A DNA stretch of 64,000 nt from Candidatus Bathyarchaeota archaeon (GCA_963807605.1 CAWECG010000004.1:448001-512000); one strand, 5' to 3'. Shown: positions 3,213 through 24,959, counted from the stretch's first letter. The notes: generated by a model from the letters alone, not told the origin. Translations and numbers: made by a program.

Positions 3213-3867
3213 GTGGGCGAATCCCACTCCACGCACTATAGTACTGGCAAATTAGTATCCATCAACCGCGCAAGTGTGGCGATGTCATAGTATGGTTCAT
3301 TCCAATCCCTGCAATCGGACGCTTCTCGCTCTGATCCCTCGAGGCACTCGAAAATAATCAGGAGTATGTGTGCCCTAGCGGGTTAGAGCACGCGAATTTG
3401 AACTGATGGTTCTTCTTGTGCGTCTTTTGGTGAGGACACAAAAACACGAATCGTATAATAATGTGTGATATCTAAGGAATGCTGATCCTCTGTTAGAAAC
3501 TAGTGTAGTTTAGGGAATCGAACTTTATCCATACCCCGCCCGGAGCTTCATGTTACTAATTAGAGGCTTTTCCGCTCAATTATTATTCATAGTTGTTCCA
3601 GTGAGAAAGAATTTAAGCCACAAAACCGTACTATCCAGAAGAGATGCTTCTGGAATGGGTTTTTCCATGAAAAAAGAGCGGGATTTAGACCCTAATGGGT
3701 TTAAAACCCACCCGGTCCACTATTGCTTGGCTCATTTGACTCTCATGACTTCCGCCCACTATTCAAGCCCTAACCAAAGTGAATTGGCCTAACAGCTGAA
3801 CCGTTCAGATCAGTCAATCTTGATGGTATCTGACCCTTTATTTAGTCCAACACCCGCGGGTCCATTA
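3213..3867 (+). repeat. array 1 of degenerate tRNA 3'-end fragments (3213-3238 Leu-like, 3531-3550 Glu-like, 3696-3722 Ala-like, 3846-3867)
   Basis: e.g. GTGGG-CGAAT-CCCAC-TCCACGC-A-CTA and TGGGTTTAAAACCCAC-CCGGTCC-A-CTA. Confidence 0.6.
3721..3860 (+). repeat. direct repeat A, copy 1 (copy 2 at 17698-17837)
   Basis: 131/140 identity by manual alignment. Confidence 0.9.
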
Positions 3868-4657: not shown

Positions 4658-4696
4658 GCATTAGCGTGTACACAAAAAACGATCAGATCACGCTAA

Positions 4697-5626: not shown

Positions 5627-5631
5627 TTCCT

Positions 5632-6309: not shown

Positions 6310-7037
6310 GTCGCAAACATTCTGACTGGTAACTCTTCATGAGCAATTTGCGCTATATCGATTACAGGGGCAAACTGCCACATATCCGACAGTTTCCTGC
6401 TGATATTCTTCTTTACGGTTTCCAATATCAGGGGTTTTAACTGATTGATTATTCTCTGGGCTTCAAAATGATCCACCATGCCCAGCCTTAGAGCTGCCCC
6501 GACGATGCTGGCGACGAAGGAATATATCAATACCATGCCAGCCCTACTCTTTGGGATTTCGAAGATGGCGCAAGCCAAAGCCAGCGCTACTGGATAGATT
6601 CCTGTGACCTGCCCGTTTTGAACGGCACTTTGATAATCGTCGAGAGCTCTGTTACCTCTAATAAATGATCCTAAACATTTCAGTACTTGTCTACCTGATC
6701 TGACTGAGGTTTCCCTAATCTCGCGGACAAGCTTCATTGAGTAAATTAGCTGATCTGCCTCTTTCAATTTCTCAAAATCAAAGTTCTTGACAAATTCGTA
6801 GGCGTTGCCAAGGACTACGCAGTCCGCAGGACCAATCTGGTTTTCAATGTATGCTTTTAGAAGATCCTGCAGCTTGTCAGCAGTCCTCACTTTCTTCTCG
6901 TAAAAAAATGTCTCAAGCCCGCTCGATGTCAAAAACATGCCGGTCGGGAAGAGTGAGTCTGAAAGTTGCAACATACTAATGTCGCATTCATTAATTTCAT
7001 CAGTGTTCATGCTCTTCCATTCCTTTGCTCGGTTCAA
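6306..7037 (-). CDS. ureF: urease accessory protein UreF
   Basis: LQLSDSLFPTG..SSGLE, AALRLG, HEELPVRMFAT. Confidence 0.93.
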   Translation of the reverse strand: MNRAKEWKSMNTDEINECDISMLQLSDSLFPTGMFLTSSGLETFFYEKKVRTADKLQDLLKAYIENQIGPADCVVLGNAYEFVKNFDFEKLKEADQLIYSMKLVREIRETSVRSGRQVLKCLGSFIRGNRALDDYQSAVQNGQVTGIYPVALALACAIFEIPKSRAGMVLIYSFVASIVGAALRLGMVDHFEAQRIINQLKPLILETVKKNISRKLSDMWQFAPVIDIAQIAHEELPVRMFAT

Positions 7038-7515
7038 ATACCATCGTTTCTTTTGTTATTTGAAGATGGTCAGATATTGGGGCAAAAAGTAAATTTAGCA
7101 TATCAATTTCGCTGTCGGCTTGAATTGGCAGGTAGATCTTATAGTCGTCAATACTTATTGGGCGATGTAGATTACCAAGAGCATGCCCTATCTTCACAGT
7201 AAGTTCAAAGCACTCATGATCTTCATGATGATCTTTCATCTGGATTACCGCTACACGCTCTGGCTCTATCTCCACAACGATCATTTTTTCTTTCTCAAGA
7301 AAAATCACATCCCCGTTCCTCATGATTGTGCCGGGTGCCAGTTGAATCCCAACATCCGTGCCTTCGTCAGTCTTCTTCCTCATCCTGATGCGCTGTGATT
7401 CCAGCCTGCTTATTCTCAGCTTCTCACAAAGATGATTCTTGCACATCGTCCTATACTTTTCATCGAGTTTCGCATCATCCTTTATGTTACCAATAACTGA
7501 TTGAGCCAAAATCAT
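7000..7515 (-). CDS. ureE: urease accessory Ni chaperone UreE
   Basis: GHALGNLH motif, His-rich segments. Confidence 0.92.
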   Translation of the reverse strand: MILAQSVIGNIKDDAKLDEKYRTMCKNHLCEKLRISRLESQRIRMRKKTDEGTDVGIQLAPGTIMRNGDVIFLEKEKMIVVEIEPERVAVIQMKDHHEDHECFELTVKIGHALGNLHRPISIDDYKIYLPIQADSEIDMLNLLFAPISDHLQITKETMVFEPSKGMEEHEH

Positions 7516-7889
7516 TTCTTATCATCTTTCTTCCGTTTTCTGGATTTGCGGAGCTTTCCCACTCGCTTTCTCATCTCGTCAAGTCTCTGTGCATAATCAA
7601 CGGATCCCAAGTGGGCAAACGCCTCTCTGTGTACGGTAGCGAATATGAATCCTTCATCTCTGAATCTGATTTTTGCTCCTCTTTCGAATTTCTCCGCGAT
7701 GATGCAGAGAGCAAGTCGGTGATCTGGAAAATCAAGGTTTAGATGCGTCAAGGTGTCAACTGGGCCGGACATGTCGTCTATCTGTTTTGCTCTGACTGTT
7801 ACATGCCGTATTCTGGTTGGATCCAAAACGTAGAGACTTTCGTTAACATTGTTGCTCTCGACGCAGTGGCGCACTAACGAGGTTTTCAC
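7512..7889 (-). CDS. hypothetical protein translationally coupled within the urease cluster
   Basis: 125 aa; 4-bp overlaps with both neighbours. Confidence 0.7.
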   Translation of the reverse strand: MKTSLVRHCVESNNVNESLYVLDPTRIRHVTVRAKQIDDMSGPVDTLTHLNLDFPDHRLALCIIAEKFERGAKIRFRDEGFIFATVHREAFAHLGSVDYAQRLDEMRKRVGKLRKSRKRKKDDKK

Positions 7890-9461
7890 CTCTTGATTTC
7901 AGAGACGGCTTGAGTGGTAAGTTCTTCTGCAGCCAGGTTCCTGTCAATCCGTAGAACGGATTTGGCTATTTCTCCTGCAGACTCTAGAGCAGTTGTCTTG
8001 ACTAGAAGAGGGTCAATAATGCCTCTTTTCCACATGTCTATTAATTCGCCGCTCTCTATGTCTATGCCAAAACCTTCTGGCGATGCTTTCACAGCCATGA
8101 CTTTTTCAAGCCCGTTGAAACCGGCATTTGTCAGTATCTGACGCATTATGCTCTCAAGTGCCGCAATCACGACATCGAGGCCAATACTTTCCAAACCTTT
8201 CAAGTTAACATTCTTGACTTTTTTTATTAAGTGAAGTTCTGCAGCGCCACCACCGGCGACAACTCCTGTGTTCAGAGCTGCTTCAGCAGCATTGACGCCA
8301 TCTCTAGTGGCCCTCCACCTTTCAAGGGATGTTTCTTTTGTTGCCCCAGATATGATGATGGTAACTATGTTCTTGCCTGACCCATTTTCTATGTATACTA
8401 CACCTTCCTTCTCGTCCTCATAGATGCGGTCTGCTTCCCCCAGGATGTCGGGTTGCTTTAGGTCTTCAAGCATTCTTACCAGCTTTGCGCGTGTATGCCG
8501 TGCTAGGTGTTCTATCTCATCTGTGGAAATTCGGATTGCGAACACTTTGTTCTTGATAAGCAAATTCTCAATGAACTCATCCACCTCGGGAGATGCGATA
8601 AGAAGGGTGTTGACGCCGGTGGCTAGGATTTCATTCACTATTTCTTTCGATTTTCTGATTCGGTCATTTTCCATAGCGGCTATATCGTCATATTTGTTGC
8701 TGTCTTTCATCCATTGTTCTTTGATAGGCTTCAGGTCAAGCTTGCACAACATTATCTTTGGAGTTTTGACCTCCTTGGGCATATCAACGTCCATTCTCTT
8801 TCTTTCCAAGACGATGCCATCGACGACTCTATCCTTCATATTCAGTTTCCTAATGACCATTACAGCCTTGTCGAAGTCATATTTCCCGTCAAATAATGCG
8901 TTATCACCAATAGACCTTATTGCGGATATTACTAAGGGCGCGAGTATTTGTCCATCCAGTTTTGATGCTAAGGAAGTTCTAACAACTTGTTCGAGCTCAA
9001 TTTCATTTATCTTGATTCTTTTTTGCTTCTTCTTCCATCATCTTACAGGCATACTTTACTCCGCTATCTATGCCGCCGACGATCTTTGATGGATGGACCC
9101 CCAGTTCTTTTATGAATTTTTTACCTTCCTTAATCATTTCTGCGGCCATGACTACTGCCGTAGTGGTGCCATCGCCGACCATTTCTTCCTGTCTTTCCGC
9201 TATCTCCACAATCATCCTTGCTACAGGATGTATCGTCTTCAGGGAGAGAAGGATTGTTACTCCATCATTAGTGACGTGTCTGTTCAAAGTCTGATCTATG
9301 AGGAGTTTATCCAGTCCTTTGGGGCCCAAAGTTGTCCTAACTGTTTCAGCTACAGCTACTACGGCATTGCAGTTGGACTCTAGAGCGTCCATCTCCACAT
9401 TTTGAGCCACAGGCCGCCAAACACTATGACCTGGACTAGACACCATTATCCCCCTTTCCAT
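7886..9461 (-). pseudogene. thermosome-like (TCP-1/cpn60) chaperonin, interrupted by a +1 frameshift in the A6 run at ~9019-9024
   Basis: TLGPKG, TNDGVTI, GDGTTT, AGGGAAE, GIIDP; removing one A joins ORFs 9003-9461 and 7886-8860 through a stop-free linker. Confidence 0.85.
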
Positions 9462-9477
9462 TAGGAAATAGGTACTT

Positions 9478-9506
9478 AAAAAAAGGAGTGCGCGCGTAGG
9501 CGCGCA
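9478..9506 (-). terminator. hairpin plus T-tract downstream of ureC
   Basis: TGCGCGC-CTAC-GCGCGCA followed by CTCC-T7 on the minus strand. Confidence 0.55.
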
Positions 9507-9524
9507 TATGTTTGATCGGGTATG

Positions 9525-11252
9525 TCACGCCATGAAGTACCTTTGGGCCAAGGCTAGCTCTTTCGCCGGTTCTACTGTAGCAATCTCTCCGTCAAGTCTT
9601 ACCTCGTAGGTTTCAGGGTCTACTGTTATCTTGGGAGTACTATCGTTCCACACCATGTTCTTCTTGCCTATGTTCCGGCAGTTCTTTACTGGCAATATGA
9701 CCTTTTCGAGTCCTAACTTTTGAGGCACTCCAAGCTCTGCGGCTGCTTTTGATATGAATGTGAAGCTAGTTTTCTTTACTGCCCGACCGAGTGCACCGAA
9801 CATTGGTCTGTAGTAAACCGGCTCCGGAGTTGGTAGGGACGCATTCGGATCTCCCATTATAGACCAAGCTATGAATCCTCCCTTGAAGATCATCTTTGGT
9901 TTCGCTGCAAAGAAGGGCGCCTGATACATTACTATATCTGCGTACTTACCGACTTCAAGGGAGCCGAGATATTCTGCAACACCATGAGTGATTGCTGGGT
10001 TTATTGTTGTCTTTGCGATGTACCGCTTAGCTCTAAAGTTGTCGTTCTCCGGGGAGTCTTCCTTCAGCTTGCCGGTCATCTTTTTCATCTTGTCCGCAGT
10101 CTGCCAGCAACGGATTACTACCTCCCCAATCCTACCCATAGCTTGACTGTCTGCGGAGTACATGCTCAAGACACCTTTATCATGCAGAACATCCTCTGCA
10201 GCGATTGTTTCGGCTCTGATTCTGGATTCTGCAAAGGCGACATCCTCTGATACCGCAGGATTCAGGTGATGACAGAACATCAACATGTCCAGATGCTCAT
10301 CCACTGTATTGACAGTATAAGGTCTTGTCGGGTTTGTTGAAGAAGGAAGTACGTTTGGCTCTCCTGCTATCTTCATAATATCGGGCGCGTGACCTCCGCC
10401 AGCTCCCTCTGTGTGGTAGGTGTGTATTGTTCTACCGTCGATCGCATTTATCGTGTCCTCGACGTAACCGCATTCGTTAATCGAGTCGGTGTGTATCGCC
10501 ACTTGTGTATCCGTGAGGTCCGCTGCTCTAAGCGAAGCGTCTATAACTGCGGCGGTTGTCCCCCAATCCTCATGGTCTTTAAGACCGCATGCTCCAGCCT
10601 CTATCTGTTCCAGCTGAGTGGCGAGTGTTGGGTGTGAGTCGTTGCCTTTGCCCAGGAAGCCCCAGTTCATCGGTGTATCCTCTACAGCTTCCAACATTCT
10701 ATGCATGTTAAAGACGCCAGGAGTACATGTAGTAGCGTTGGTACCGTCTGCAGGCCCGGTTCCTCCACCGATCATATTGCATATTCCATTACTTATCGCG
10801 TCGACGTATTGCTGTGGGCTTATCATGTGAACGTGTGTATCAAAATGACCTGGAGTGCAGATTGTATGTTCCCCGGCGGTGGCTTCCGTACATGCCGAGA
10901 CTACCATGTGAGGATCAACGCCATCCATTACATTGGGATTGCCGCCTTTTCCAATCCCTGCTATTTTGCCGTCTTTTATCCCGATATCGGCCTTCAGGAT
11001 TCCCAGGATAGGATCTAGTATGATGGAATTGGTGATTATGAAATCCAAAGCCCCATTCGCATTTGTAACTCCTGGCGTTTGGCCTAGTCCATCTCTTATT
11101 GTCTTGCCTCCACCGAAGACCTCCTCGTCTCCGTGGGTTATCAGATCTTTCTCTATCTCGATGAGTAGGTCTGTGTCACCTAGTCTTACTTTATCTCCGG
11201 TTGTGGGCCCATAAAGATCACTGTACTGTTTTCTTGTTAGTTTCAAAACCAT
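9525..11252 (-). CDS. ureC: urease subunit alpha
   Basis: [51 protein letters not shown]. Confidence 0.98.
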
Positions 11253-11258
11253 TTTTCT

Positions 11259-11675
11259 TCACGCTCCTTTGAAGTCTAGTTTCTTCGCCTTTTCAAGAGC
11301 GGCGGACTTGACTGTACTTGACAGTAGACTGCCCATCGTTAGTGCATTGAATCCGTAGACAACCTTCTTGCCGCCTAATTCGCAGATCTCAACTTCTTTT
11401 GAGTCACCCGGCTCAAACCTTACAGCTGTTCCTGCCGGGATATTCAGTCTATACCCGAATGTTTGTCCTCTTGGGAAATCGAGTTTCTTGTTTACCTCGA
11501 AGAAATGCGTGTGGGAGCCTATCTGTATTGGCCTGTCACCGGTGTTCTTCACCGTAATCTTAATGGTCTTTCTATCTTTGTTGCAGATGACTTCTCCGGG
11601 AGCTAGAACGTATTCGCCCGGTAGGACGTGTGTTGGGTGTTCCTCTTTCCTTTTTTCTTCTTTCTGCTTACTCAG
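11259..11675 (-). CDS. ureB: urease subunit beta (probable CTG start at 11675)
   Basis: PGEY..., NTGDRPIQIGSHTHFFEVN, RLNIPAGTAVRFEPG; frame open upstream of track start; AGGTGA SD. Confidence 0.93.
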   Translation of the reverse strand: MSKQKEEKRKEEHPTHVLPGEYVLAPGEVICNKDRKTIKITVKNTGDRPIQIGSHTHFFEVNKKLDFPRGQTFGYRLNIPAGTAVRFEPGDSKEVEICELGGKKVVYGFNALTMGSLLSSTVKSAALEKAKKLDFKGA

Positions 11676-11686
11676 ATTTCATCACC

Positions 11687-11989
11687 TTACTGAATAGGAT
11701 CGTGTACGGTCACAAGTTTGGTGCCGTCTGGGAACGTGCCTTCTACTTGTACAGTGTGTATTAGCTCAGAGACACCGGACATTACATCGCCTCTTCTTAG
11801 TACGGTTCTTGCGGATTGCATCAGTTCTGCAACGCCTTTTCCCTCACGAGCGCCCTCGACTATGTAGCTTGCAATGAAAGCGACCGCTTCCGGGTGATTC
11901 AGCTTTATTCCTTTCTTCTTGCGTTGTTCTGCTATTTGTGCCGCTGTCCAAATCATCATTTTTTCAATTTCTCTTGGAGCCAACATCAT
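11687..11989 (-). CDS. ureA: urease subunit gamma
   Basis: [31 protein letters not shown]. Confidence 0.97.
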
Positions 11990-12138
11990 TTTATTTTCTC
12001 TCTCCTAATTTTATTTTCTCTCTCCTATTTTCATCCTGACTTTTACGCTCACCTTTCATTTGGAAATTTCTTCTCGATTCGAAATCATCTCAGTATTCTT
12101 TTGTAGTTTGTATCCATCTCCTCATGGCGCAGCACTTG

Positions 12139-13194
12139 TCAGGGCCTAGCCCATCCGATGCCAGCTGGGATATTCAACGCGAACGGAGCTGCTAGCAGAA
12201 ATGCCCACGCCGTAAAGACGAACGGTCCAGTCAAAGCTGGAAGCCCCCATTTGCTAAAGAAGTTCTGGAAGGCAGGCATCGTAACCAAGCTGCAGACTAT
12301 TGTTGCAAATACCGCGTACAGGAAGGTTTGCCAAGTCAACGGCAGGAAACTTGTAAGCGCGATCATGACCAGGACTTGGTTGAATCCGTGTACGCCAACC
12401 CTAATTTCTGAAGTCGGAAGCCTCGCCATTATTGCCAGAGCTGCTCCTATCGCGGATCCTATCAGTGCCATCAAACCAGCCAACCAAAGCGTAGATGTCG
12501 GATCCCACCCACTAGTGAAGGCATTCGTGAATAATCGGTCTGGAGGAAAGAGCTCGAAAGAAAGGGTTAGGCCCACAACCCAGAATATTCCCGTCTTCCA
12601 ATTTTCAACAAATGTGACTTGGGAAACCCCATTGAGAACTGCCTTCGTGAATTCTTTTGCCGTCCATTTGAATCCAGCTATCACTGTATCAGCTGGCGCA
12701 CTTGGCCATATGTCATGGCCGTATCTTTTGGTTGCATACATTAGAAGCCATGTTGAGAATATGAAAGATGAAGTAAAGCCCGGAATAGCCCAACCTTTTC
12801 CACCTAAGACGAACCAATCACCCATGACGTGAGCCATCGTCATCCAGACTACCGCAGTGAATGCAGCGCCAAATAATGAAAGTACAAGTGTTGCTCTGTT
12901 GGTCTTTGCGAATGGCCCAGACCAGAATGCCATCCCAGTCAAGATGGAGTTAAATCCGAAAAGACCAAAAGTAACCAGACCATAGGGAGCACCCAATATT
13001 AACGCAACTGCTGCGCCTATTAATCCAGAAACCACCATCATTACACCTGCTTTTCGAGAGGCGATCAAAACTCCAATTAGGATGAGCAGACCAGTAAGTG
13101 CTGAACTAATCAGAGGTACTTCTGAAATCCCATTGAAGAGAATGTAGATGAAATCCAATATTGGATTTCCAGTTACAAAACCTGGTGCCGACAA
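12139..13194 (-). CDS. urea transporter (UT/Yut family)
   Basis: duplicated NGISEV/NGVSQV, GLFGFN/GVHGFN and GLPALTGPF motifs; first gene of the ure cluster. Confidence 0.88.
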   Translation of the reverse strand: MSAPGFVTGNPILDFIYILFNGISEVPLISSALTGLLILIGVLIASRKAGVMMVVSGLIGAAVALILGAPYGLVTFGLFGFNSILTGMAFWSGPFAKTNRATLVLSLFGAAFTAVVWMTMAHVMGDWFVLGGKGWAIPGFTSSFIFSTWLLMYATKRYGHDIWPSAPADTVIAGFKWTAKEFTKAVLNGVSQVTFVENWKTGIFWVVGLTLSFELFPPDRLFTNAFTSGWDPTSTLWLAGLMALIGSAIGAALAIMARLPTSEIRVGVHGFNQVLVMIALTSFLPLTWQTFLYAVFATIVCSLVTMPAFQNFFSKWGLPALTGPFVFTAWAFLLAAPFALNIPAGIGWARP

Positions 13195-13875
13195 GTATCC
13201 ATAACCTCCATTGGATTACCCGTACTCAGTTAGATCTTAACACAATACTCTAGTTTTGCCTGGTAGCGCCTTAGCTCGGTGAACCCCACCGGCAGCGCTG
13301 CGCCAGTCCAGTTAATGAGCAGATTATTCATATAAGATAAATGGAAGAAAATCGATACGAATGTCTAAAATTGATAGAAAATCCTATCATTTGTTTAGAC
13401 TAGCATCAGATTTTCTGACCTCCTCGCCTATTGCTACTCGAACGCGTTATGTCAAACGCGCTCGAAACAAGAAATACCTTAAGCACCTAACTTGTTGAGC
13501 AAGACAGGAAGACTGGTTTCATCTGTCATACCCCGTACTAATCTAAATCCTTCAACAATCAAAGACTGGAGGAGATCGTCGGATGCACTAATACGTAAGC
13601 AAACACCCTAAGGAAGTAGCCATTGACGACTACCATTACAAAAATCTGCATAGAGACGCACACACAAATTCATCACACTGGGAAAAAGAACTTCAGGTCT
13701 GAGATGCAGTTAGCGCAGGCTTCATAGATCCTTTTCGACATTCAGACGGTTATGGGTGTGAGATGTTGACGAATCCTATTGGTAGTAGAACCAACCGTTT
13801 TCCTGGCATGGCTTGGATTGTTGTAGAATAAGGCACTTCTGAACGATAAAGGGCTCTAATTCACACTTAGATGAG

Positions 13876-13896
13876 CAAGTCCCGGCGGCCGCACCA
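13876..13896 (+). repeat. tRNA-Gly 3'-end fragment (att-like scar)
   Basis: CAAGT-CCCGG-CGGCCGC-A-CCA; no 5' tRNA half; weaker copy at 13281-13299. Confidence 0.75.
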
Positions 13897-15636: not shown

Positions 15637-15674
15637 ATATAAGTTTGAACCTATATATCAGTTCGGACTTATAT
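15637..15674. promoter_or_regulatory. candidate operator over the divergent pdxS / thrC-HTH promoters
   Basis: inverted repeat ATATAAGTTTGAAC-N10-GTTCGGACTTATAT (12/14), containing TATA-like boxes. Confidence 0.6.
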
Positions 15675-17139
15675 GGTTCTGCTATGTTCAGATTGTGGCG
15701 TCAATTACGCGGACTCTGAGGCGCTCAGGGTCTGCCGAAGATGCGGGCAGCCTCTATCGGTAACCTATGACTACGACAAGATCAGGGAGACACTTAGCAT
15801 CAAAGAGATCTCCAAGAGACCTTTTCGGCTATGGAGGTATCTCGAACTGCTGCCCATCACAGAGGAGGCTCATGTGATCTCACTGGGCGAGGGCGGAACC
15901 TACCTGCATAGATGCGATAGGCTCGCCAAATCATTGAGGTTAAAGAAGCTATACTTGAAAAATGAGACCACCAACCCTACTGGCTCATTTATGGATCGGG
16001 GCGTAACGGTCACTGTCACCAAGGTTAAACAAACAGGAATCAGAACCGTCTGCTGTGCCCCAACAGGGAATCTTGGCTCCTCCCTAGCAGCCTACGCAGC
16101 CAAAGCAGATCTAGAATGTAGAGTCTTCATCTCACATGAGGTGGACCTTGGTAAGCTCTACCAGATGATAGCCTTCGGTGCCGATGTCCAGACCGCCAGA
16201 GACATAGACGATGCATATCAAAAGGCCACTAGGATCGCTGATAAGAGCTACTTGGTAACCCCAGAAGATCCATACCTCCTCGAGGGAGAGAAGACTATAG
16301 GATATGAAATATGTGAACAACTCGATTGGCACACACCAGACTTGATAGTAGTTCCAATGGGAAGCGGCGGAAACCTCTCAATGATCTGGAAGGGAATTCA
16401 GGAATTCCTCCAAATCGGCTTAATCCGGAATAGTCATGCAGCCATGGTCGGCATTCAGAGCTCAAGCCACTCACCGATAGTAGACGCCTTCAAGGGCGCT
16501 CGTAAACTAGAAAAATCCAAGGGAGAAGGAAGATCTTTAGCTGTTGACATAGCTGTCAAGAATCCCGCTCTTGGAGACGCAGCCTTGAAGGTGATAGAGG
16601 CCTCAAAAGGCATAGCAACAAGCGTCTCCGACAACGAGATTCTAGAAGCAACACGATTACTTGCAAAGACAGAAGGGATCTTCGCCGAACCTGCTGCAGG
16701 CTCCACAATTGCCGGGCTTACGAAACTGGTAGAGTCTGGAGAGGTGGCCAGAGACCAAGAGGTCGTCTGCATAATAACAGGCTCAGGGCTCAAAGACCCT
16801 TACACCGCCCGTAAGTTTGCAGATGAAATGAAGCGTACTCGCAAACTCGTAAACAGTATCGACGAAGGTAGGGATGTCAGGCTCGGCGGTACAAAAATGA
16901 ACATCCTCAAGATCCTTCAGAATAGAGAACTTTATGGTTATGGCATATGGAAGGAGCTGTTAACTTATCATTCGAAAAAAGTCACCATGCCAACAGTGTA
17001 TCAACATCTACAAGAGATGGAGATGCGGGGATTGCTCAAACGTACAAGAAGAGAGGAATCAGTGGGAAGACCAGACCGCTGGTATTACATCCTAACAGAG
17101 AGGGGCAGGGAGGCTCTAAAAGCCTTCAGCAGACTATAG
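15673..17139 (+). CDS. thrC: threonine synthase-like (fold type II PLP) domain with the catalytic Lys replaced by Met, fused to a C-terminal PadR-like winged HTH
   Basis: Zn ribbon, SLGEGGT, NPTGSFMDRG (normally FKDRG), GEKTIGYE, ITGSGLKD; YGYGIWKEL..TVYQHL..YYILTERG. Confidence 0.85.
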   Translation: MVLLCSDCGVNYADSEALRVCRRCGQPLSVTYDYDKIRETLSIKEISKRPFRLWRYLELLPITEEAHVISLGEGGTYLHRCDRLAKSLRLKKLYLKNETTNPTGSFMDRGVTVTVTKVKQTGIRTVCCAPTGNLGSSLAAYAAKADLECRVFISHEVDLGKLYQMIAFGADVQTARDIDDAYQKATRIADKSYLVTPEDPYLLEGEKTIGYEICEQLDWHTPDLIVVPMGSGGNLSMIWKGIQEFLQIGLIRNSHAAMVGIQSSSHSPIVDAFKGARKLEKSKGEGRSLAVDIAVKNPALGDAALKVIEASKGIATSVSDNEILEATRLLAKTEGIFAEPAAGSTIAGLTKLVESGEVARDQEVVCIITGSGLKDPYTARKFADEMKRTRKLVNSIDEGRDVRLGGTKMNILKILQNRELYGYGIWKELLTYHSKKVTMPTVYQHLQEMEMRGLLKRTRREESVGRPDRWYYILTERGREALKAFSRL

Positions 17140-17343
17140 CACCTGATCCAATAGAGAATATCGAGGGTCAGTATCACGTCGGGCCGCCCAAGGTCAGACA
17201 GCTCAGACTCAAATGTCGAATGTTATGTTATGAACCTCAATTTCAACCCAATTTCCTCAACAAAAATGCTCTGGGCCCGGTTCGAACATCAGAGGTATGA
17301 ACCCGCGTGAATTTTGAGCCCAAATCTAGCACCGTTAACGCAT

Positions 17344-17442
17344 CGAATCCCGTCGGGCTCGCCAACAATAATCGATAAAAATTGTGGCATAATAACGGCG
17401 ATTGTGGTCTACAGGCAATTCAGGTATTCGCACCTAATAAGG
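17344..17442 (+). repeat. direct repeat B, copy 1 (copy 2 at 24661-24759)
   Basis: 88/99 identity by manual alignment; weaker similarity extends ~60 bp upstream. Confidence 0.9.
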
Positions 17443-17697
17443 GGTGCATACCGGCGGCTGCACCATTCTAGCGGTTCACAGTATCATCTGTAGACAAGAT
17501 TCCTGAACCTAAACAATTCGCCTTCGACACGGCTGTGAAAGTGTGAATCCCGCCCGGTCCACCATTCTGCACGTTCCGAATGAAAACGGTCTTTTTACGC
17601 ACTATCTTGGAGCTGTGGAAGAGCCACTTGCGAGAGGTAGATAGTTCTTATTCATATCTAGCTAATCAAATCCCGGCGGCCGCACCAATGATTTTTG

Positions 17698-17837
17698 TAT
17701 TGCTTGGTTCATTTGACTGTCATGACTTCCGCCCGCTATTCGAGCCCTAACCAAAGTGAATTGGCCTAAATGCTGAACCGTTCAGATCGGTCAATTTTGA
17801 TGGTATCTGACTCTTTATTTAGTCCAACACCCGCGGG
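17698..17837 (+). repeat. direct repeat A, copy 2
   Basis: matches 3721-3860. Confidence 0.9.
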
Positions 17838-17854
17838 CCGGCAATTCTCAGTGC

Positions 17855-18700
17855 CTACGTGCTACCGTCTTCTGTTTCAGATCTTTTCGTATGCTGAAGG
17901 GTGGCCATCTTGAGGCGGGACGTCATTTTTCTCAGTTTCTCCGTTGTCCTAATGGGTGATCCATGATTCTGCTCAATCACTTTGACAAACACGCTTCCAA
18001 CGATAGCCCCATCAGCTCCAGCTGCCACAATCTCTCTGATCTGTTCAGGGGTTGATATTCCAAAGCCGGTTGCAAGTGGAATCTCGTCCCTTATGTAGGA
18101 ACGAAACTCCTTAACTAACCTCACAGTCGAATCTGGGAGCCTTCTCCTGGCTCCAGTTACACCAAAGAGTGAGACTAAGTATAGAAAACCTGATGTGTAT
18201 TTCAGGATTTCCTGCAGTCTTTCCGCTGTGGTGGAGGGTGCTGCGAGAAATATTGTGTCGATCTTGGCTTCATCAGCGATCCTCTTGTAAGTGTCTGCCT
18301 CTTCAAAGGGCAGATCAGGGATTACTATCCCGTCAACCCCATTCATCTTTGCTAGTTCCAAGAAATTCTTCAGTCCGCTTTTGTAGATTATGTTATAGTA
18401 GGTCAGAAGTACGACGGGGATCCTGTGTTTTTCCTTGATCTTCTTTACGATCTTCATGACCAGTGGGGGCTTGGTTCCGGCTTTCAATGCTCTGACTGTT
18501 GCAGCTTGAATCGTCGGCCCATCCGCAATTGGATCAGAGAATGGGATGCCAAGTTCAATTACGTCTGCACCTCCTTCAACTAGAGCATCCACAATTCTAG
18601 GAGTGAATTTTGGAGATGGATCGCCCGCGGTCACGTACGTGATCAGCGCGGCCTCATTCCTCTCGCTCAGATCTCTGAAGGTTTCTGCAATAATGGTCAA
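17855..18700 (-). CDS. trpA: tryptophan synthase alpha
   Basis: [36 protein letters not shown]. Confidence 0.97.
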
Positions 18701-19896
18701 AGTCTTCGCCCCATTCTTCCAGCCACAACCTCCACATCCTTGTCACCTCTTCCTGAGATTGTGACCACGACACCTTCTTCGCTGTTCATCTTGGGTACTA
18801 TCTTCTTCATGTGTGCTAGCGCATGGCATGTCTCCAAAGCTGGAATAATCCCCTCTGTCCTGGAAAGCTCACAGAAGGCTTCCAGGGCCTCTTTGTCTGT
18901 GGCTGTGGCATACTCGACACGCCCTATACTGTGAAGATAGGAGTGTTCTGGGCCGACTGCTGGGTAGTCGAGGCCTGCAGAGACACTGTGGGTTGGCTGT
19001 ACCTGGCCATAGGCGTCTTGGAGAAGATAGGTTAGCATGCCATGGAATACCCCCTCTGACCCTGCACAGATTGAGGCTGCATGCTTTCCAGTCTTAATTC
19101 CTCTTCCTCCGGCCTCGACGCCATACATCTTTACGTTGTCATCATTAAGGAAGTGGTGGAATGTTCCTATGGCGTTGCTGCCGCCTCCAACGCATGCGAA
19201 GAGTGCGCTAGGTAACTTCTTCTCCTTCAGCAGGATCTGTTCCTTGATCTCCTTTCCAATGATACTCTGGAGGTCTCTTACGATCATTGGGTAGGGGTGA
19301 GGTCCTACCGCTGATCCAATCAAGTAGTATGTTGTCTGGGGGTTGGTCGTCCAGTCTCGGAGGGCCTCGTTTATCGCATCCTTCAGTGTCCTTGAACCCG
19401 AATCCACAGGGTGGACCTTCGCCCCGAGTAGCTCCATGCGGAAGACATTGAGCCTCTGCCTCTTCATATCCTCGGTTCCCATGTAGATCTCCGCATCCAG
19501 ACCTAGGGTAGCGCATGCTATCGCCGTGGCCACTCCATGCTGGCCTGCGCCGGTCTCCGCGATAACCCTCTTCTTGTTCATCCTCTTGGCCAGGAGAGCT
19601 TGACCTAGTGTGTTGTTGATCTTGTGGGCTCCTCCGTGAGCCAGATCTTCCCGTTTCAGATAGATCCTTGGGCCCCCGTACCTGCTGGATAGATTCTTGG
19701 CATAGTAGAGGGGTGTCGGTCTGCCAGCGAACTCTCTTAGATAATGGTCGAGCTGGTTCTTGAAATCAAGGTCCTCCTTGAAGCTAAGGTATGCATCTTC
19801 CAGCTCGCTGAGCACAGACATCAGAGTCTCAGGTACAAAGCGTCCTCCATACTTACCGAATTTGCCCTTGAACAAATTGGCCTGTTGCAGGTTCAA
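18697..19896 (-). CDS. trpB: tryptophan synthase beta (TrpB1)
   Basis: [39 protein letters not shown]. Confidence 0.98.
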
Positions 19897-20537
19897 TATG
19901 CAGCCTCCCTAGCTTTCCTGATGAACTCGGTCATCTTCTCAGGATCCTTAACCCTAGGACGCACCTCGACCCCCGTTGAGACATCGACCCCGTATGGCCT
20001 AACCGTACTTATCGCGTGGCCGACATTCTCTGGAGTGAGCCCTCCGGCAAGAATCATGGGTGCCGGGTATATTGCGTCCCTGATTTTTCTGCTTAAACTC
20101 CAGTCGTGTACAAGGCCTGTCCCTCCACGACCAGTCTGATCATGGGTGTCTACCAATACGGCTTGAGAGAATCTCGAGTATGACAGAGCTTGTTCGATCG
20201 CATCAAGCGCTCCAACATCAACAGCTACTATTACCTTGACTCTTGATGCCAAACCATTCCGGCGATACGATTCAGAAGCCACTCCATGAAGTTGTAGGAA
20301 TTTTGGAGCCAGCTCTTGGCAGATCTCCGCGGTTCTTTTTATTCCGTTGAAGACCGTCACTACCACGCTGTCCACGTTGCTTGGCAATCGGTCTATCAGG
20401 TTCTTTGCTTCTCTGAAAGAGAGATTTCTCGGTGATGCGGCTATGTCGACAATGAATCCTATGGAATCAACACCGGCCTGGACAGCTATATCCAAATCTT
20501 CCTGTTGAGTTACTCCGCAGATCTTTACTTTCACCAT
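19893..20537 (-). CDS. trpF: phosphoribosylanthranilate isomerase
   Basis: [32 protein letters not shown]. Confidence 0.96.
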
Positions 20538-20543
20538 CTGGAT

Positions 20544-21317
20544 CTATGCCTCCGCCAGCTCCCGGACTTTCTCTTCAGGGTTGAGAGCTGACATGATGGA
20601 TGATCCAACTAGGAAAGCACTCGCTCCACACTCTCTGAGGAAACGAACATGATCTCCGGTGTCGATTCCACTCTCACTCACGACAACATGGTTGCTTGGG
20701 TGGCGTGAACTCAATATCTTCCTTGTGACATCCAGATCTGTCTGCAGGGTCGAGAGATCTCGATTGTTTATTCCAATGAGGTCAGCCTCGGTGCTGAGAG
20801 CTCTTTCGAACTCTTCTGTGGTATGGGCCTCAAGCAGAATCTCCATACCTCTGTCATGCGCTAGATCTATCGTTCCTTCAAGATCGTTATCGCATAGGTT
20901 TCTCTCGAAGAGAGATTCGATCAGCAGTATCGCTTCAGCTCCGATCCTGGATGCGGCTTCAACCTGGATTGGATCGACGATTATGTCTTTCATGAGCCGC
21001 GGAAGGCCACATCTACGCGCGGTTATGAGGTATTCAGTTCTGCCTCTGAAGTGTTTCGGCTCGGTCAAGATCGATAAGCCGACTGCACCACCCAGTTTCA
21101 TCATCGACGCCAAAGCTTCAACGTTAATGTTCTGAGTGATGATCCCCTTCGAGGGTGAGGCGGGTTTGATCTCAGCTATTACTGGATTCCTCTTGCATTT
21201 GAGAATCGACTCTTTGAGCCCCATGCCGACTCTCTCATGAGATTGCTCAATATGATAGTAGCCTTCCGCAACGGTCTCTCTGGCATCCCTTGCCAGGATA
21301 TCTAGATAGTCACGCAG
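20544..21317 (-). CDS. trpC: indole-3-glycerol phosphate synthase (probable CTG start at 21317)
   Basis: IAEIKPASPS, SILTEP, MKD, GINNRDL, ESGI; frame open 31 codons upstream of the track ATG. Confidence 0.94.
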   Translation of the reverse strand: MRDYLDILARDARETVAEGYYHIEQSHERVGMGLKESILKCKRNPVIAEIKPASPSKGIITQNINVEALASMMKLGGAVGLSILTEPKHFRGRTEYLITARRCGLPRLMKDIIVDPIQVEAASRIGAEAILLIESLFERNLCDNDLEGTIDLAHDRGMEILLEAHTTEEFERALSTEADLIGINNRDLSTLQTDLDVTRKILSSRHPSNHVVVSESGIDTGDHVRFLRECGASAFLVGSSIMSALNPEEKVRELAEA

Positions 21318-22368
21318 TTATCTCCAGCTCCTCAAGTCTCGACAGGTTGCCGCCAGTGAACTCGATCAGCGAGACGAGTTTTCCGTAAGCTGCACCGCTC
21401 TCAATTGACTGGGCAGCGAGCTCGAGGCCTTCTTCGAAGCTTTCTGCTTTCCCTCCGACTACGATGCCTGCGGCTGCATTGAGTAGTACTATGGCTTGCT
21501 TGGGATCCCTGTGGGTACAGTGGCCTCTCATAATCCTAAGAGTCGCCACCGCGCTCTCATGGGTAGTTGAGCATCGCAGCGCCTCGGGTTTGGCTTTCTC
21601 TATACCAAAGTCCTCTGGCTCGATCGTGAAGCTGCATATCTCATCCTCTCTTAACCAAGAGATCTTGGTCCCTCCGACTGTGGAGACCTCGTCTAAGCCG
21701 TCGAGGCCGTGCACAACCATTGCTTGCTTGACACCAAGGTTTGAAAGTACGCTCGCTAGTGGTTCGGTCAAGGATTCTTGGTATACACCCAGAAGCTGGG
21801 CTGTTACGTTGGCCGGATTGGTCAGAGGACCCAGAATGTTGAACACTGTTCTGATCCCGATCTGACTCCTAGGGTTGACTGCATACTTCATTGCTGGGTG
21901 AAATGCTGGAGCGAACATGAATCCAATCCCAACCTCCTCTATTGCTTTCTCCACCGTCTCTGTTGGTATGTTGAGCCTGAGCCCCAGGGTCTCCAGAACG
22001 TCGGCGCTTCCACATCGGCTTGTCACAGACCGGTTCCCATGCTTTGCAACAGGTATGCCTGCGCCAGCGATGACAAAGGCGGACACTGTACTGATGTTGA
22101 ATGTCTTGACCTGATCGCCGCCTGTTCCACATGTGTCGACTAGGTTGCCTGCAACTTCAGGGTTAATCCGGTGGCAACAGCTTCTCATTACTCTTGCAAG
22201 TGATGTGATCTCGTCTACGGTCTCACCCTTCATCCTGAGGGCTGTCAGGAATGCGGCGATCTGTGCGTCTGTGGCTTTGCCCTCCATGATCTCCTGCATG
22301 ACCTCCCGTGCCTCTTTCTGTGTCAGGTCTCTTCGCTCAACGAGTTTTGCAATGGCTTCCTTAATCGT
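21310..22368 (-). CDS. trpD: anthranilate phosphoribosyltransferase (probable ACG start at 22368)
   Basis: DTCGTGGD, KHGNRS, GSADVLE, LGPLTNP, DGLDE; upstream (M)IKEAIAKLV. Confidence 0.95.
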   Translation of the reverse strand, partial: TIKEAIAKLVERRDLTQKEAREVMQEIMEGKATDAQIAAFLTALRMKGETVDEITSLARVMRSCCHRINPEVAGNLVDTCGTGGDQVKTFNISTVSAFVIAGAGIPVAKHGNRSVTSRCGSADVLETLGLRLNIPTETVEKAIEEVGIGFMFAPAFHPAMKYAVNPRSQIGIRTVFNILGPLTNPANVTAQLLGVYQESLTEPLASVLSNLGVKQAMVVHGLDGLDEVSTVGGTKISWLREDEICSFTIEPEDFGIEKAKPEALRCSTTHESAVATLRIMRGHCTHRDPKQAIVLLNAAAGIVVGGKAESFEEGLELAAQSIESGAAYGKLVSLIEFTGGNLSRLEELEITA

Positions 22369-22954
22369 CTCGGTAACCTCCGTCTAGGAAGTTTCTGAGA
22401 ATTCTTTTTCCTTGGTTGGTCAGGATAGACTCCGGATGGAACTGTAGGCCCTCGATTGGGTACTTGGTGTGGCGAATACCCATTATTTCGCAATCATCAA
22501 GAGAGTAGGCTGTTGCCTTCAAACAGTCTGGGAGCGAGAACAGATCAGCTACGAGGGAGTGGTATCTGGTGGCCTCAAGTGGATTTGGTGTGTCTCGGAA
22601 GATCCCTTTTCCGTCATGTTTTATCAGGCTGGTCTTGCCGTGCATCAGCCTCTGTGCTCTGATGATCTTTCCTCCAAAGGCATGTACGATCCCTTGATGC
22701 CCAAGGCAGATACCTAGTGTTGGTATGTGTCTGCTTAGATCTCTCAGGATGGCCAAGCAGTTGCCGAAGTATCGGGTTTCTGCTGGTGTTCCAGGTCCAG
22801 GGGAGAGAATCACTCTGTCGGGGTTGAGTCGTCTTGCCTCTCCTAGAGTCACCGTGTTGTTTCTGTGGACAACTGGTGTTCCGCCAAGTTCACCGACATA
22901 CTGTGCGATGTTGTATACGAATGAGTCATAGTTGTCTATTATCAGGACTTTCAA
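22361..22954 (-). CDS. trpG: anthranilate synthase component II
   Basis: IDNYDSF, SPGPG, GICLGHQ, RYHSL, QFHPES. Confidence 0.97.
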   Translation of the reverse strand: MKVLIIDNYDSFVYNIAQYVGELGGTPVVHRNNTVTLGEARRLNPDRVILSPGPGTPAETRYFGNCLAILRDLSRHIPTLGICLGHQGIVHAFGGKIIRAQRLMHGKTSLIKHDGKGIFRDTPNPLEATRYHSLVADLFSLPDCLKATAYSLDDCEIMGIRHTKYPIEGLQFHPESILTNQGKRILRNFLDGGYRDD

Positions 22955-24373
22955 ATCATTTCACCCGCCTTCTCCAAGGCCTTCATGAGAGCCGCGGCTT
23001 TTTGTTCTGTTTCAAACCATTCTTTCTCGGGGTCTGAGTCAGCCACTATCCCTGCGCCTACTTGGATTGAGGCTTTATTCTGATGGGTTGTCAGGGTACG
23101 GATGGTTATGGCAAAGTCTGCGTTTCCGTTGTTCGAGAAGTATCCGACGGCGCCCGCGTATGGTCCTCTTCTTGTGGGTTCAAGTTCCTCAATTATCTCC
23201 ATGGCTCTGACTTTCGGTGCTCCTGAGACAGTTCCGGCGGGGAGCATGGCTTTGAGTGCGTCAAAGCAATCCATGTCTGGACGTATCTTTCCGACGACTC
23301 TGGAGACGATGTGTTGGACATGACTGTATTGGTGTACAGTCATGAATTCAGGTGTGTGGACTGACCCAAACTCAGCTATTCTGCCGATGTCGTTCCGTGC
23401 CAGGTCTACAAGCATCACATGTTCAGCCCGCTCCTTCGGGTCTGAAAGCAACTCTTCAGCCAAGATCTGGTTCTTGGCTTGATCGTCGGTTCTTGGTCTG
23501 GTCCCGGCTATCGGATAGGTCTCCACGAGACCATTTTCAACTCTCACAAGCATCTCAGGACTTGAACCTACGACCTGTCTTTCTCCCATTTTGAGAAAAT
23601 ACATGTATGGGGATGGGTTGATGTTTCTCAACGTTCTGTAGAAGTTGATGAGGCTGCCCTCGAAGTTGAAGTTATAACGTTTTGAAAGGACTGCCTGGAA
23701 GATGTCTCCCGAAGAGATGTAGTTCTTGGCTTTCAAAACAGCCTCTTGAAAGTCGTCTTTTGAAGTATTCGATGTTGGGGTGGTGTATCTGAAGGGTTCT
23801 GGATCGGTGATGGCCTCTTGGATTCTGCTTTTGATCTCTGCCAATCGATCCCTGTTTTGAAAGTAGTAGTATGCTGTTCTGTTGATGTGATCGAAGACTA
23901 TCCCATCGTCAAAGAACGCCATCTCGAGATCTGGGAACTTGAGATCATCGGTGGCGGATTCCGGAATCTTTTCCCAGTACCTTACCGCATCATACGAGAT
24001 GTATCCTACGGCACCACCTGCGAGACGAAACTGGTCGAATGTTAAATGATTCCTCTGAATCTCACTTCGCATGATGTCAAGTGGATTGTGCGTTTCTTGG
24101 CATTCGTCTCCTGATGTCATGCTAGTGGTTCTTGCCACATGTCCTTTGACAGAGATCACTAGGTGTGGGTCAAACCCTATGAACGAGAACTTCGCCAGTT
24201 TTTCCGGGCCTTCAACTGACTCTAGAAGATATGTGTACCCGCTGTCTCCCTCAAGTCTTGCAAAGATATCTGCTGGCGTGTCGGTGTAGGGGATCTCTTC
24301 AAGATTGACCTTAGGCGATTTTCTGGAAGTTGGCTCCTCTAGTCTTGAGGTTTGTCCAAAGGCGATACCCCAT
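22951..24373 (-). CDS. trpE: anthranilate synthase component I; 5' ATG (24373) is one base out of frame
   Basis: LLESVEG motif upstream of the track start; NPSPY, SSPE, PIAGT, EHVMLVDLARND, GTVSGAPK, GAGIVADS. Confidence 0.93.
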
Positions 24374-24660
24374 TTACGCTAGTCCCCTGCATATCTGATG
24401 CATTAGGGACACACGAGTTCTATTTAAGGTTAGTGAGTACACTATTGTACATCTATATGCCTCACAACTTGAGAAGACCGACCATTATGTGCTTGACAGG
24501 ACAGAACACGAACACTGAAGCCTGTCCTCACGGTCCAATCGCACGCTGCTGAGAAAATCCGGCATAGTCAGAAAGTTCCTTCGCGGAGCTTGAAAGTGTA
24601 AGTTCGAATTATAGGAGAAAAAAATCAATTTTGAGCTCGGTCATGGCAACTATAACGTTA

Positions 24661-24782
24661 CGAACCCCGTCGGGCCCGCCAACGGTAATCGATACAACTT
24701 GCGGCATAATAACGGTCATTGTGGTCTGTAGGCAATTCAGGTATTCGCACCTAATAAGGCTCGAGTACCCGCGGGCCCGCCA
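24661..24782 (+). repeat. array 3: two Lys/Arg-like tRNA 3'-end fragments enclosing direct repeat B copy 2
   Basis: CGAACCCCGTCGGGCCCGCCA (24661-24681) and TCGAGTACCCGCGGGCCCGCCA (24761-24782). Confidence 0.8.
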
Positions 24783-24959
24783 TGATGACGTTCCTAGTGC
24801 TAATTTGTGTGAGGAAACATCACGCGGTGTACCGACGGGATCACCACTTCGAGGTTTCGATGTATATCTGAAGTGGGATTTACGGGGCTTGTCACAAAAT
24901 TGGGGGGTAGAATTCCAGAGAATACTCGACGGGGGAACTGCCAACAACTTTGGATCAGG

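What the first reader, a model, noticed from the sequence alone, without database searches (positions are those of the whole stretch)
17344..24782. The trp operon is bracketed by a direct-repeat cassette whose downstream tRNA tail has been swapped
Seen: a 99-bp unit (Lys-like tail + spacer) occurs at 17344-17442 and 24661-24759 (88/99 identical). Both copies end right before the next tail with the same 101-bp tail-to-tail period. That next tail is Gly-like in one copy and Lys/Arg-like in the other. Inference: homology breaking at the T-loop is what site-specific exchange between tails would leave. Whole operons such as trpEGDCFBA may be inserted or excised as cassettes between tails.
Basis: partly seen in the sequence, partly recalled or inferred. 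Interest (0 to 1): 0.8.

Follow-up and report, generated by a model that had tools for sequence, protein, structure and literature searches.

The report
Integrase scars flanking the trp operon
The repeats on both sides of this archaeon's tryptophan operon are leftover docking sites (copies of tRNA gene ends) of integrase-carrying mobile elements, a known kind of genome scar; nothing shows that the operon itself moves.

Summary
Positions 17344-17442 and 24661-24759 are 88/99 identical, both tail-to-tail periods are 101 bp, and the next tail is Gly-like in one copy and Arg(GCG)-like in the other.

The "tails" are the last 16-21 nt (T-loop to CCA) of this Bathyarchaeia genome's own tRNA genes. 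Each follows a conserved "arm". A strict count finds 35 orphan tails genome-wide, against 0-2 in shuffles.

I read them as attachment-site scars of elements that integrate into tRNA 3' ends with tyrosine integrases:
- A Pfam-negative integrase family sits directly after several true tRNAs. One is tRNA-Arg(GCG), 8.3 kb before the window.
- The arms are inverted copies of the sequence between those tRNAs and their integrase genes.
- In the sister species, an orphan tail upstream of trpE appears to carry such an element.

So exchange at tails is supported. The trp-cassette idea is not:
- The operon occurs with the same gene order in nine related genomes.
- TrpE diverges like LysRS (both 77% to the sister species).
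- Two other genera have no tails at the operon flanks.
- No empty site or circle junction was found.

A urease cluster in the same tail-delimited series is unique to this genome.

Earlier follow-ups of this scan reached similar readings on other DNA of this genome. This is a variant of a known process.

The parts
17265..17343 (+). Arm 1 (family-1 arm), the conserved sequence that precedes orphan tails
   Evidence: nhmmer finds 22 copies in the genome, copies in 9 of 15 other genomes of the same family and copies in 7 metagenome contigs.
17344..17364 (+). Tail T1, like the 3' end of tRNA-Lys(CTT) from the T-loop to CCA
   Evidence: 19 of 21 positions match the tRNA at C3:610580-610697.
17365..17444 (+).
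   Evidence: 90.5% identical over 74 nt to 24686-24759. Its last 20 nt recur at C2:544-563. Diverged relatives of its last ~40 nt precede Arg-type tails at C3:577257 and C3:313453, and a Lys-type tail in G001. It is an inverted copy of the sequence after the tRNA at C1:9387.
17445..17465 (+). Tail T2, Gly-like and degenerate
   Evidence: 17 of 21 positions match the tRNA-Gly gene ending at C4:38050.
17544..17564 (+). Tail T3, like the 3' end of tRNA-Ala (carries the G3:U70 acceptor)
   Evidence: 19-24 nt are identical to tRNA-Ala genes.
17667..17687 (+). Tail T4, like the 3' end of tRNA-Gly(GCC)
   Evidence: 19-20 nt are identical to tRNA-Gly genes.
17698..17827 (+). Arm X, a second copy of 3721-3860. 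Its two ends resemble the two ends of the element at tRNA-Arg(GCG).
   Evidence: 93.6% identity over 140 nt. The inverted similarity to the sequence after tRNA-Arg(GCG) was read by eye.
17828..17844 (+). Tail T5, Arg(GCG)-like and degenerate, lying just beyond the end of trpA
   Evidence: Repeat family D19.
17855..24159 (-). trpE-G-D-C-F-B-A operon
   Evidence: Pfam hits for all seven genes. The gene order is conserved in relatives.
24627..24660 (+). Remnant of arm 1 (its last 34 nt)
24661..24681 (+). Tail B1, tRNA-Lys(CTT)-like
   Evidence: 19 of 21 positions match.
24682..24761 (+). Arm 2, second copy
24762..24782 (+). Tail B2, like the 3' end of tRNA-Arg(GCG)
   Evidence: 19 of 21 positions match the tRNA at C4:439601-439696.
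3721..3866 (+). Arm X plus an Arg-like tail, the likely right end (attR) of the integrase element that begins at tRNA-Arg(GCG) 8.3 kb before the window
13855..13896 (+). Arm plus a perfect tRNA-Gly(GCC) tail between the urea transporter gene and pdxT
3215..3240 (+). Unit with a short arm and a Leu/Ser-type tail, a third tail family

Best explanation
The repeated units are attachment-site scars of mobile elements that integrate into the 3' ends of tRNA genes with tyrosine integrases.

How a scar forms: each integration copies the last 16-21 nt of the target tRNA (T-loop to CCA). The result is an orphan tail preceded by the element's own end, which I call the arm. When the element's interior is later deleted, and further elements integrate into the orphan tails, solo scars of about 100 bp stack into arrays.

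How this applies here: the window begins inside such an element, anchored at tRNA-Arg(GCG). The scars at about 3.9, 13.9, 17.3-17.8 and 24.7 kb all lie on the tRNA's strand and separate blocks of genes. Arm 2 is joined to a different tail in each copy because the arm-2 element recombined with different tail targets, or because one tail was later overwritten.

The trp operon is an old chromosomal operon lying between two such hot spots. It is not a demonstrated cargo.

Shown: the repeats, the identity of the tails, the integrase family and its position next to tRNAs, the inverted arms, and conservation of the operon. Inferred: the order of events, the crossover point, and whether the scars are still active in this genome.
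For: 1. The tails match this genome's own tRNA 3' ends, and its tRNA genes encode CCA.
2. There are 35 orphan tails against 0-2 in shuffled genomes. Array A is the largest cluster.
3. A 508-aa ORF starts 47 nt after tRNA-Arg(GCG). It has no Pfam hit but matches a PF00589- and PHROG-integrase protein by BLASTP at E = 3e-19.
4. A profile of this protein family hits the XerA structures 4a8e (6.5e-12) and 5hxy (4.7e-9). The catalytic Arg, Arg, His and Tyr are invariant.
5. Homologues lie directly 3' of true tRNAs at C1:9387, C4:65886 and C3:590401. Two more flank tRNA-Lys(TTT).
6. A canonical PF00589 integrase follows the tRNA at C3:770912, which serves the third tail family.
7. Arms 1, 2 and X are inverted copies of the sequence between a cognate tRNA and its integrase gene. 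A complete arm-tail-inverted-arm site occurs in metagenome contig L051.
8. G007 has LysRS, then tRNA-Arg, then 7.5 kb, then arm 1 with a perfect Arg tail. G013 has tRNA-Ala, then 3 kb of genes with no known relatives, then arm 1 with an Ala tail, next to its trp operon.
9. In G001 the orphan tail upstream of trpE is followed by an arm and the first residues of an integrase-like gene.
10. The operon looks ancestral.
Against: - There is no integrase gene inside 3.9-25 kb of the window, so the scars around trp have no resident enzyme.
- Tandem integration at one tRNA predicts identical tails, yet the arrays mix Lys, Gly, Ala and Arg tails. Explaining this needs integration into non-cognate orphan tails, which is not shown here.
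- The inverted arms lie about 24 nt apart. That is wide for classical core sites and also looks like transposon terminal inverted repeats with a target duplication.
- The tails and arms flanking trp are conserved between two species whose proteins are only 77% identical. That is more than a neutral relic should keep.
- The arms were not found on any free viral contig.
Confidence: 0.65

Rival explanations
1. The trp operon is, or recently was, an integrase-less mobilisable cassette. It would be bounded by directly repeated tail sites and excised and reinserted in trans by the genome's integrases.
For: - Arg-type tails in direct orientation lie on both sides of the operon, at 17828-17844 and 24762-24782.
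- G000 and G001 both show tail, trp operon, tail, but with different outer neighbours.
- The interval from tRNA-Arg to the ABC transporter genes is variable between genera.
- A urease cluster in the same tail-delimited series is unique to G000 among 16 genomes.
- An orphan tail in G001 appears to be used as an integration target.
- trpB and trpA are closer to genus g8 than to the sister species.
Against: - TrpA has a single match in G000, and the operon occurs with the same gene order in the relatives examined.
- TrpE identity tracks that of LysRS.
- The ABC genes are also neighbours of trp in G013 and G003, which suggests an old adjacency.
- G007 and G004 have no tails at the flanks.
- In G001 the two flanking tails are of different types.
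- The left tail in G000 is degenerate.
- No empty site or circle junction was seen. The only other assembly found is identical to the window.
Confidence: 0.17
2. The arms are terminal inverted repeats and the tails are 15-16 bp target-site duplications of Cas1-driven casposons, or of their miniature derivatives. Earlier follow-ups proposed this for other tail families in this genome.
For: - The arms on the two sides of a tail are inverted copies of each other.
- The invariant part of a tail is about 16 nt, close to the 15-bp duplication at the tRNA-Pro T-loop target of the A. boonei casposon (PMC5137440).
- The element at tRNA-Arg carries a PolB exonuclease fragment and a VRR-NUC nuclease.
- The genome has one full Cas1 gene.
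Against: - There is no Cas1 on contig C4. The genome has one full copy and two fragments, all elsewhere.
- Integrase genes sit immediately after the tRNA-proximal arm at six or more loci.
- About 20 arm-then-tail copies of family 1 exist, against one copy in the opposite arrangement. A transposon should leave equal numbers of both ends.
- Seven to twelve T-loop-like bases separate the inverted part of the arm from the tail on one side only.
Confidence: 0.1
3. The units are functional genes for 3' pieces of split, trans-spliced tRNAs, and the arm is a leader that pairs with the trailer of a 5' piece.
For: - tRNA genes here are heavily interrupted. ARAGORN finds only 9 without allowing introns.
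- T-loop introns exist in this lineage.
- The tails end in an encoded CCA.
- The arms are conserved across genera.
Against: - Intact genes exist for every tail type in the arrays: Lys, Ala (three genes), Gly and Arg.
- No tail-less 5' piece with a trailer complementary to an arm was found. The only reverse-complement copy of an arm follows a complete tRNA-Lys and precedes an integrase gene.
- RNAalifold finds no consensus structure.
- Several tails are degenerate.
Confidence: 0.03

Closest known systems
Tandem genomic islands at ssrA in Dehalococcoides (PMC3146451)
   Same: There, a series of islands lies downstream of one small-RNA gene. Each island is bounded by a roughly 20-bp direct repeat of the gene's 3' end, and insertion is in the T-loop. 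The islands carry metabolic operons. Some have no integrase and were proposed to be cis-mobilisable or fixed. A conserved motif sits next to each repeat.
   Different: Those repeats all derive from one gene (ssrA), and the enzyme is a serine recombinase. Here the tails of at least five different tRNAs are mixed in arrays with a period of about 100 bp, the enzymes are tyrosine recombinases, and the host is an archaeon.
Archaeal tRNA-targeting tyrosine integrases and 'gene capture' (review PMC8371274; She et al. 2001, cited there)
   Same: Integration is into tRNA genes and the tRNA is restored. Orphan tRNA fragments mark the far end of the element. Elements integrate in tandem and then decay. 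Integrase lineages switch between tRNA targets.
   Different: The integrase family here is not recognised by Pfam for most members. The integrase gene stays intact next to the tRNA, so it is not the SSV 'suicidal' type. Dense stacks of solo scars with unlike tails have not, to my knowledge, been described.
Mycobacteriophage Ms6 attP core and tRNA-Ala T-loops (PMC1762012)
   Same: The crossover region lies at the T-loop and 3' end of a tRNA gene. Changing the attP core redirects integration to other tRNA T-loops. This is a precedent for one arm being found with different tails.
   Different: That is a bacterial phage, and the retargeting was engineered.
Family-2 casposon target at tRNA-Pro of Aciduliprofundum boonei (PMC5137440)
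   Same: The target is the T-loop segment plus the 3' end of a tRNA gene. Insertion makes a short direct duplication with terminal inverted repeats abutting it. Tandem copies are known.
   Different: There is no Cas1 near these loci, and an integrase gene is next to the tRNA instead. The two kinds of element end are present in very unequal numbers.
Scattering of tRNA fragments by a mobile element in Caldiarchaeum (PMC3293823)
   Same: An orphan tRNA fragment is separated from its gene by a recombinase-bearing insert, and copies are scattered through the genome.
   Different: That case involves a 5' fragment at a single locus and was used to explain intron gain.

Membership tests
att sites of tRNA-targeting tyrosine integrases | A tyrosine recombinase gene lies next to the target tRNA. 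| tested here: met
   The family profile hits XerA structures at 6.5e-12, with the catalytic Arg, Arg, His and Tyr invariant. Members lie directly 3' of tRNA-Arg(GCG), C1:9387, C4:65886, C3:590401 and tRNA-Lys(TTT).
att sites of tRNA-targeting tyrosine integrases | A direct repeat of the tRNA 3' segment marks the far end of the insert, on the same strand as the tRNA. | tested here: met
   Arg-type tails lie at 3866, 17844 and 24782, all on the + strand downstream of tRNA-Arg(GCG). G007 and G013 give clean examples.
att sites of tRNA-targeting tyrosine integrases | The insert differs from the backbone in content, or is absent in relatives. | tested here: inconclusive
   The first 12 kb after tRNA-Arg hold the integrase, genes with no known relatives, a nuclease and a PolB fragment. 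The urease cluster is unique to G000. But the pdxST-PALP/PadR block and the trp operon, which lie in the same series, are ancestral.
att sites of tRNA-targeting tyrosine integrases | The integrase recombines the sites (integration and excision). | not testable with these tools
   This needs an in vitro or in vivo assay.
Cis-mobilisable cassette (integrase-less element with working att sites) | The segment is present or absent between strains, with breakpoints exactly at the att repeats, or a circular junction exists. | tested here: not met
   No variant was found. The operon is present in relatives with or without tails.
Casposon ends and target duplication | A Cas1 casposase lies between terminal inverted repeats that are flanked by a duplication of about 15 bp. 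| tested here: not met
   There is no Cas1 on C4, and the one full copy in the genome is not near these families. The inverted arms are present, so the geometry alone does not exclude this.
Integron | An integron integrase with an attI site and promoter, followed by cassettes that end in folded attC sites. | tested here: not met
   There is no integrase next to the arrays. The units are tRNA 3' ends and RNAalifold predicts no consensus structure for them. Most units are empty.
Split or trans-spliced tRNA genes | A matching 5' piece with a complementary trailer exists, and no intact gene exists for that tRNA. | tested here: not met
   Intact genes exist for all the tail types, and no complementary 5' pieces were found.

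The most novel reading that the evidence does not exclude
In this family of Bathyarchaeia, orphan tRNA tails with their arms form a dispersed, still-active recombination platform. Integrases supplied in trans would recombine unlike tails, with the crossover in the shared T-loop or acceptor segment. This would stack mini-elements into arrays and move integrase-less chromosomal blocks, such as the urease cluster and possibly the trp operon, as cassettes. The result would work like an integron but be built from tRNA ends.
Probability: 0.15. Interest if true: 0.75.

Novelty: new variant of a known kind. Interest (0 to 1): 0.42.

Why it matters
tRNA genes are the classical landing sites of integrating elements, and scars at them are routine. 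Three things are less ordinary here:
- The scars are dense: 35 strict orphan tails in 2.65 Mb.
- Tails of five different tRNAs are stacked in arrays with a period of about 100 bp.
- The scars sit at the borders of ordinary metabolic gene blocks, one of which (urease) is unique to this genome.

If the scars are still used, they would explain how gene order is reshuffled and how metabolic operons are gained in an abundant, uncultured archaeal class. The work also defines an integrase family that standard profiles miss. For annotation, these tails should not be called tRNA pseudogenes or split tRNAs.

Tried and rejected
- Split-tRNA 3' pieces: rejected. Intact genes exist for every tail type, and no complementary 5' pieces were found.
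- A structured RNA: RNAalifold gives no consensus structure, and Rfam finds nothing at the arrays.
- A decayed tandem tRNA gene cluster, suggested by the 100-bp period: considered and not favoured. The spacers are arm sequences that recur elsewhere with other tails, and relatives have no tRNA cluster next to PALP/PadR.
- A simple inversion of trp between flanking tRNAs, working from the G013 arrangement: the predicted tail orientations do not fit (reasoned).
- Arms on free viral contigs: 0 hits, or chance hits only.
- A population variant: the exact-protein look-up gave only one identical 1.8-kb contig, which ends inside arm 1.
- Hybrid tails after arm X, as proof of a crossover inside the tail: suggestive for the copy at 3866 but not for the copy at 17844, so I do not rely on it.
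- My first loose tail scans were mostly noise. Only the strict count is used.


Full report
**The observation**

The window is G000:C4:448001-512000 of a 2.65-Mb, five-contig genome. Its nearest named relatives are Bathyarchaeia.

The repeat is real:
- Positions 17310-17466 and 24627-24783 match over 157 nt at 78%.
- Tails end at 17364 and 17465, and at 24681 and 24782, so both periods are 101 bp.
- Between the copies lie trpE, G, D, C, F, B and A on the minus strand.
- No complete tRNA is detected in the window.

**What the tails are**

The genome's tRNA genes are rich in introns and encode CCA. Each tail is the last 16-21 nt of one of these genes, from the T-loop to CCA. The best matches are:

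| Tail | Coordinates | Best match |
|---|---|---|
| T1 | 17344-17364 | tRNA-Lys(CTT), 19 of 21 |
| B1 | 24661-24681 | tRNA-Lys(CTT), 19 of 21 |
| T2 | 17445-17465 | tRNA-Gly, 17 of 21 |
| T3 | 17544-17564 | tRNA-Ala |
| T4 | 17667-17687 | tRNA-Gly(GCC) |
| T5 | 17828-17844 | tRNA-Arg(GCG), degenerate |
| B2 | 24762-24782 | tRNA-Arg(GCG), 19 of 21 |

Further tails lie at about 3240, 3552, 3722, 3866 and 13896.

I counted 13-mers within one mismatch of a real tRNA end, followed by CCA, and lacking a contiguous T-arm. This strict count gives 35 orphans against 0-2 in shuffled genomes. A few of the 35 are probably real tRNAs with an odd or interrupted T-loop. Array A is the largest cluster.

**The arms**

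The sequence before each tail belongs to recurring families.
- Arm 1 has 22 copies in the genome. It also occurs in 9 of 15 other genomes of the same family, in none of 15 genomes from other families of the order, and in 7 environmental contigs.
Its last 20 nt recur at C2:544-563. Diverged relatives of its last ~40 nt precede Arg-type tails at C3:577257 and C3:313453, and a Lys-type tail in the sister species. Copy A in the window is the odd one, with a Gly-like tail.
- Arm X (17698-17837) is 93.6% identical to 3721-3860.
- A third, short-armed family carries a Leu/Ser-type tail.

**The link to integrases**

- tRNA-Arg(GCG) lies at C4:439601-439696, 8.3 kb before the window. It is followed after 47 nt by a 508-aa ORF with no Pfam hit.
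- That ORF matches, at E = 3e-19, a protein with PF00589 and PHROG integrase hits.
- A profile of six paralogues hits the XerA structures 4a8e and 5hxy. The catalytic Arg, Arg, His and Tyr are invariant.
- Homologues sit directly after true tRNAs at four more loci, and on both sides of tRNA-Lys(TTT).
- A canonical integrase follows the tRNA at C3:770912, which serves the third tail family.
- The short sequence between each such tRNA and its integrase gene is an inverted copy of the matching arm.
- Contig L051 shows a full site: arm, then tail, then inverted arm.

Clean examples exist in relatives:
- G007 has LysRS, then tRNA-Arg, then 7.5 kb, then arm 1 with a perfect Arg tail.
- G013 has tRNA-Ala, then 3 kb of genes with no known relatives, then arm 1 with an Ala tail, directly upstream of its trpE.

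I therefore read the units as right-end (attR-type) scars, and the 100-bp arrays as stacked, internally deleted remnants. Cas1 is absent from this contig. The two kinds of element end are also very unequal in number. For these reasons I rank the casposon reading, proposed in earlier notes of this scan, as a minor rival for these families.

**The trp operon**

- TrpA has a single match in G000.
- The operon has the same gene order in nine related genomes.
- TrpE is 77% identical to that of the sister species G001, the same figure as LysRS.
- In G001 the operon is flanked, in the same orientation as here, by two units. An arm-1-like unit with an Arg-like tail lies beyond trpA. Arm 2 with a Lys tail lies upstream of trpE.
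- That second tail is followed by an arm and the first residues of an integrase-like gene, and then the contig ends. The residues are few, so this occupancy is an inference.
- G007 and G004 have no tails at the flanks.
- G013 and G003 have real tRNA genes at the flanks, and the ABC transporter pair lies on the other side of the operon.
- The only other assembly with this TrpA is identical to the window and breaks inside arm 1.

So the flanks are long-lived integration hot spots, but movement of the operon is not shown.

**What speaks for the bolder reading**

- All scars in 3.9-24.8 kb lie on the strand of tRNA-Arg(GCG) and separate gene blocks.
- The urease and urea-transporter block between the tails at 3866 and 13896 is found in no other of the 16 family genomes.
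- The interval between tRNA-Arg and the ABC genes is also variable in G007.
- trpB and trpA are closer to genus g8 than to G001.
- Against this, the pdxST-PALP/PadR block in the same series is ancestral and has no adjacent tails in three relatives.

**Comparison and verdict**

The closest analogue is the set of tandem ssrA islands of Dehalococcoides. Those have T-loop insertion, 20-bp repeats, metabolic cargo and some integrase-less members (PMC3146451). The general archaeal picture is reviewed in PMC8371274. Retargeting of a T-loop attP core is shown for phage Ms6 (PMC1762012).

This is a variant of a known process.

Noticed in passing
window 4130-13896: The block holding an AsnC regulator, the urease genes and a urea transporter is bounded by orphan tails at 3866 and 13896. 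UreC is found in none of the other 15 genomes of the family. This is a better candidate for an acquired, tail-bounded island than trp.
   Followed up: partly
window 10804-11102 (+): Rfam reports 5_ureB_sRNA at 45.5 bits. The hit lies antisense inside the urease alpha-subunit gene (9525-11252, minus strand). It probably reflects coding-sequence conservation rather than an sRNA.
   Followed up: no
G000:C4:439601-441267 (L033 9602-11271); G001 contig C74; G007 contig C71 at about 40.3 kb: LysRS followed by a tRNA-Arg is a shared integration hot spot. In G000 a tRNA-Arg and an integrase gene follow LysRS. In G001 an integrase homologue follows LysRS (the tRNA was not checked). In G007 a tRNA-Arg, a 7.5-kb insert, an orphan Arg tail and an integrase fragment follow it.
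   Followed up: partly
whole genome; in the window at 1496, 9490-9505, 14005 and 39938: The motif GCGCGCGC occurs 298 times against about 25 expected. It often sits at unit or insert borders, including in G001 and G013. Its cause is unknown.
   Followed up: partly
L037 (G001 contig C324) 4807-6736: In the sister species, trpB and trpA are only 52% and 39% identical to those of G000, and trpA has two stop codons. In genus g8 (G012) they are 85% and 69% identical. This suggests a mosaic or decaying 3' half of the operon.
   Followed up: no
window 15673-17139 (+): This gene fuses a pyridoxal-phosphate enzyme domain (TrpB-like PALP fold) to a PadR DNA-binding domain. It is divergent from pdxS, and the arrangement is conserved in G005, G002 and G013.
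   Followed up: no
L025 8079-10938 (G000:C3:420-423 kb): tRNA-Lys(TTT) has an integrase gene on each side. Nearby lie a HEPN and nucleotidyltransferase pair and a HerA-like ATPase.
   Followed up: no
L027 5250-5390 (-) (G013): A tRNA gene beyond trpA appears to carry an intron inside the T-loop as well as others. Rfam's gathering threshold does not detect it.
   Followed up: no
G000 C1:487171, C1:487847, C2:71703, C2:75094, C3:18203, C3:452197, C3:765428 and others: Ten or more orphan Leu/Ser-type tails share one short arm. Several are followed by the inverted arm, so they look like complete sites.
   Followed up: partly
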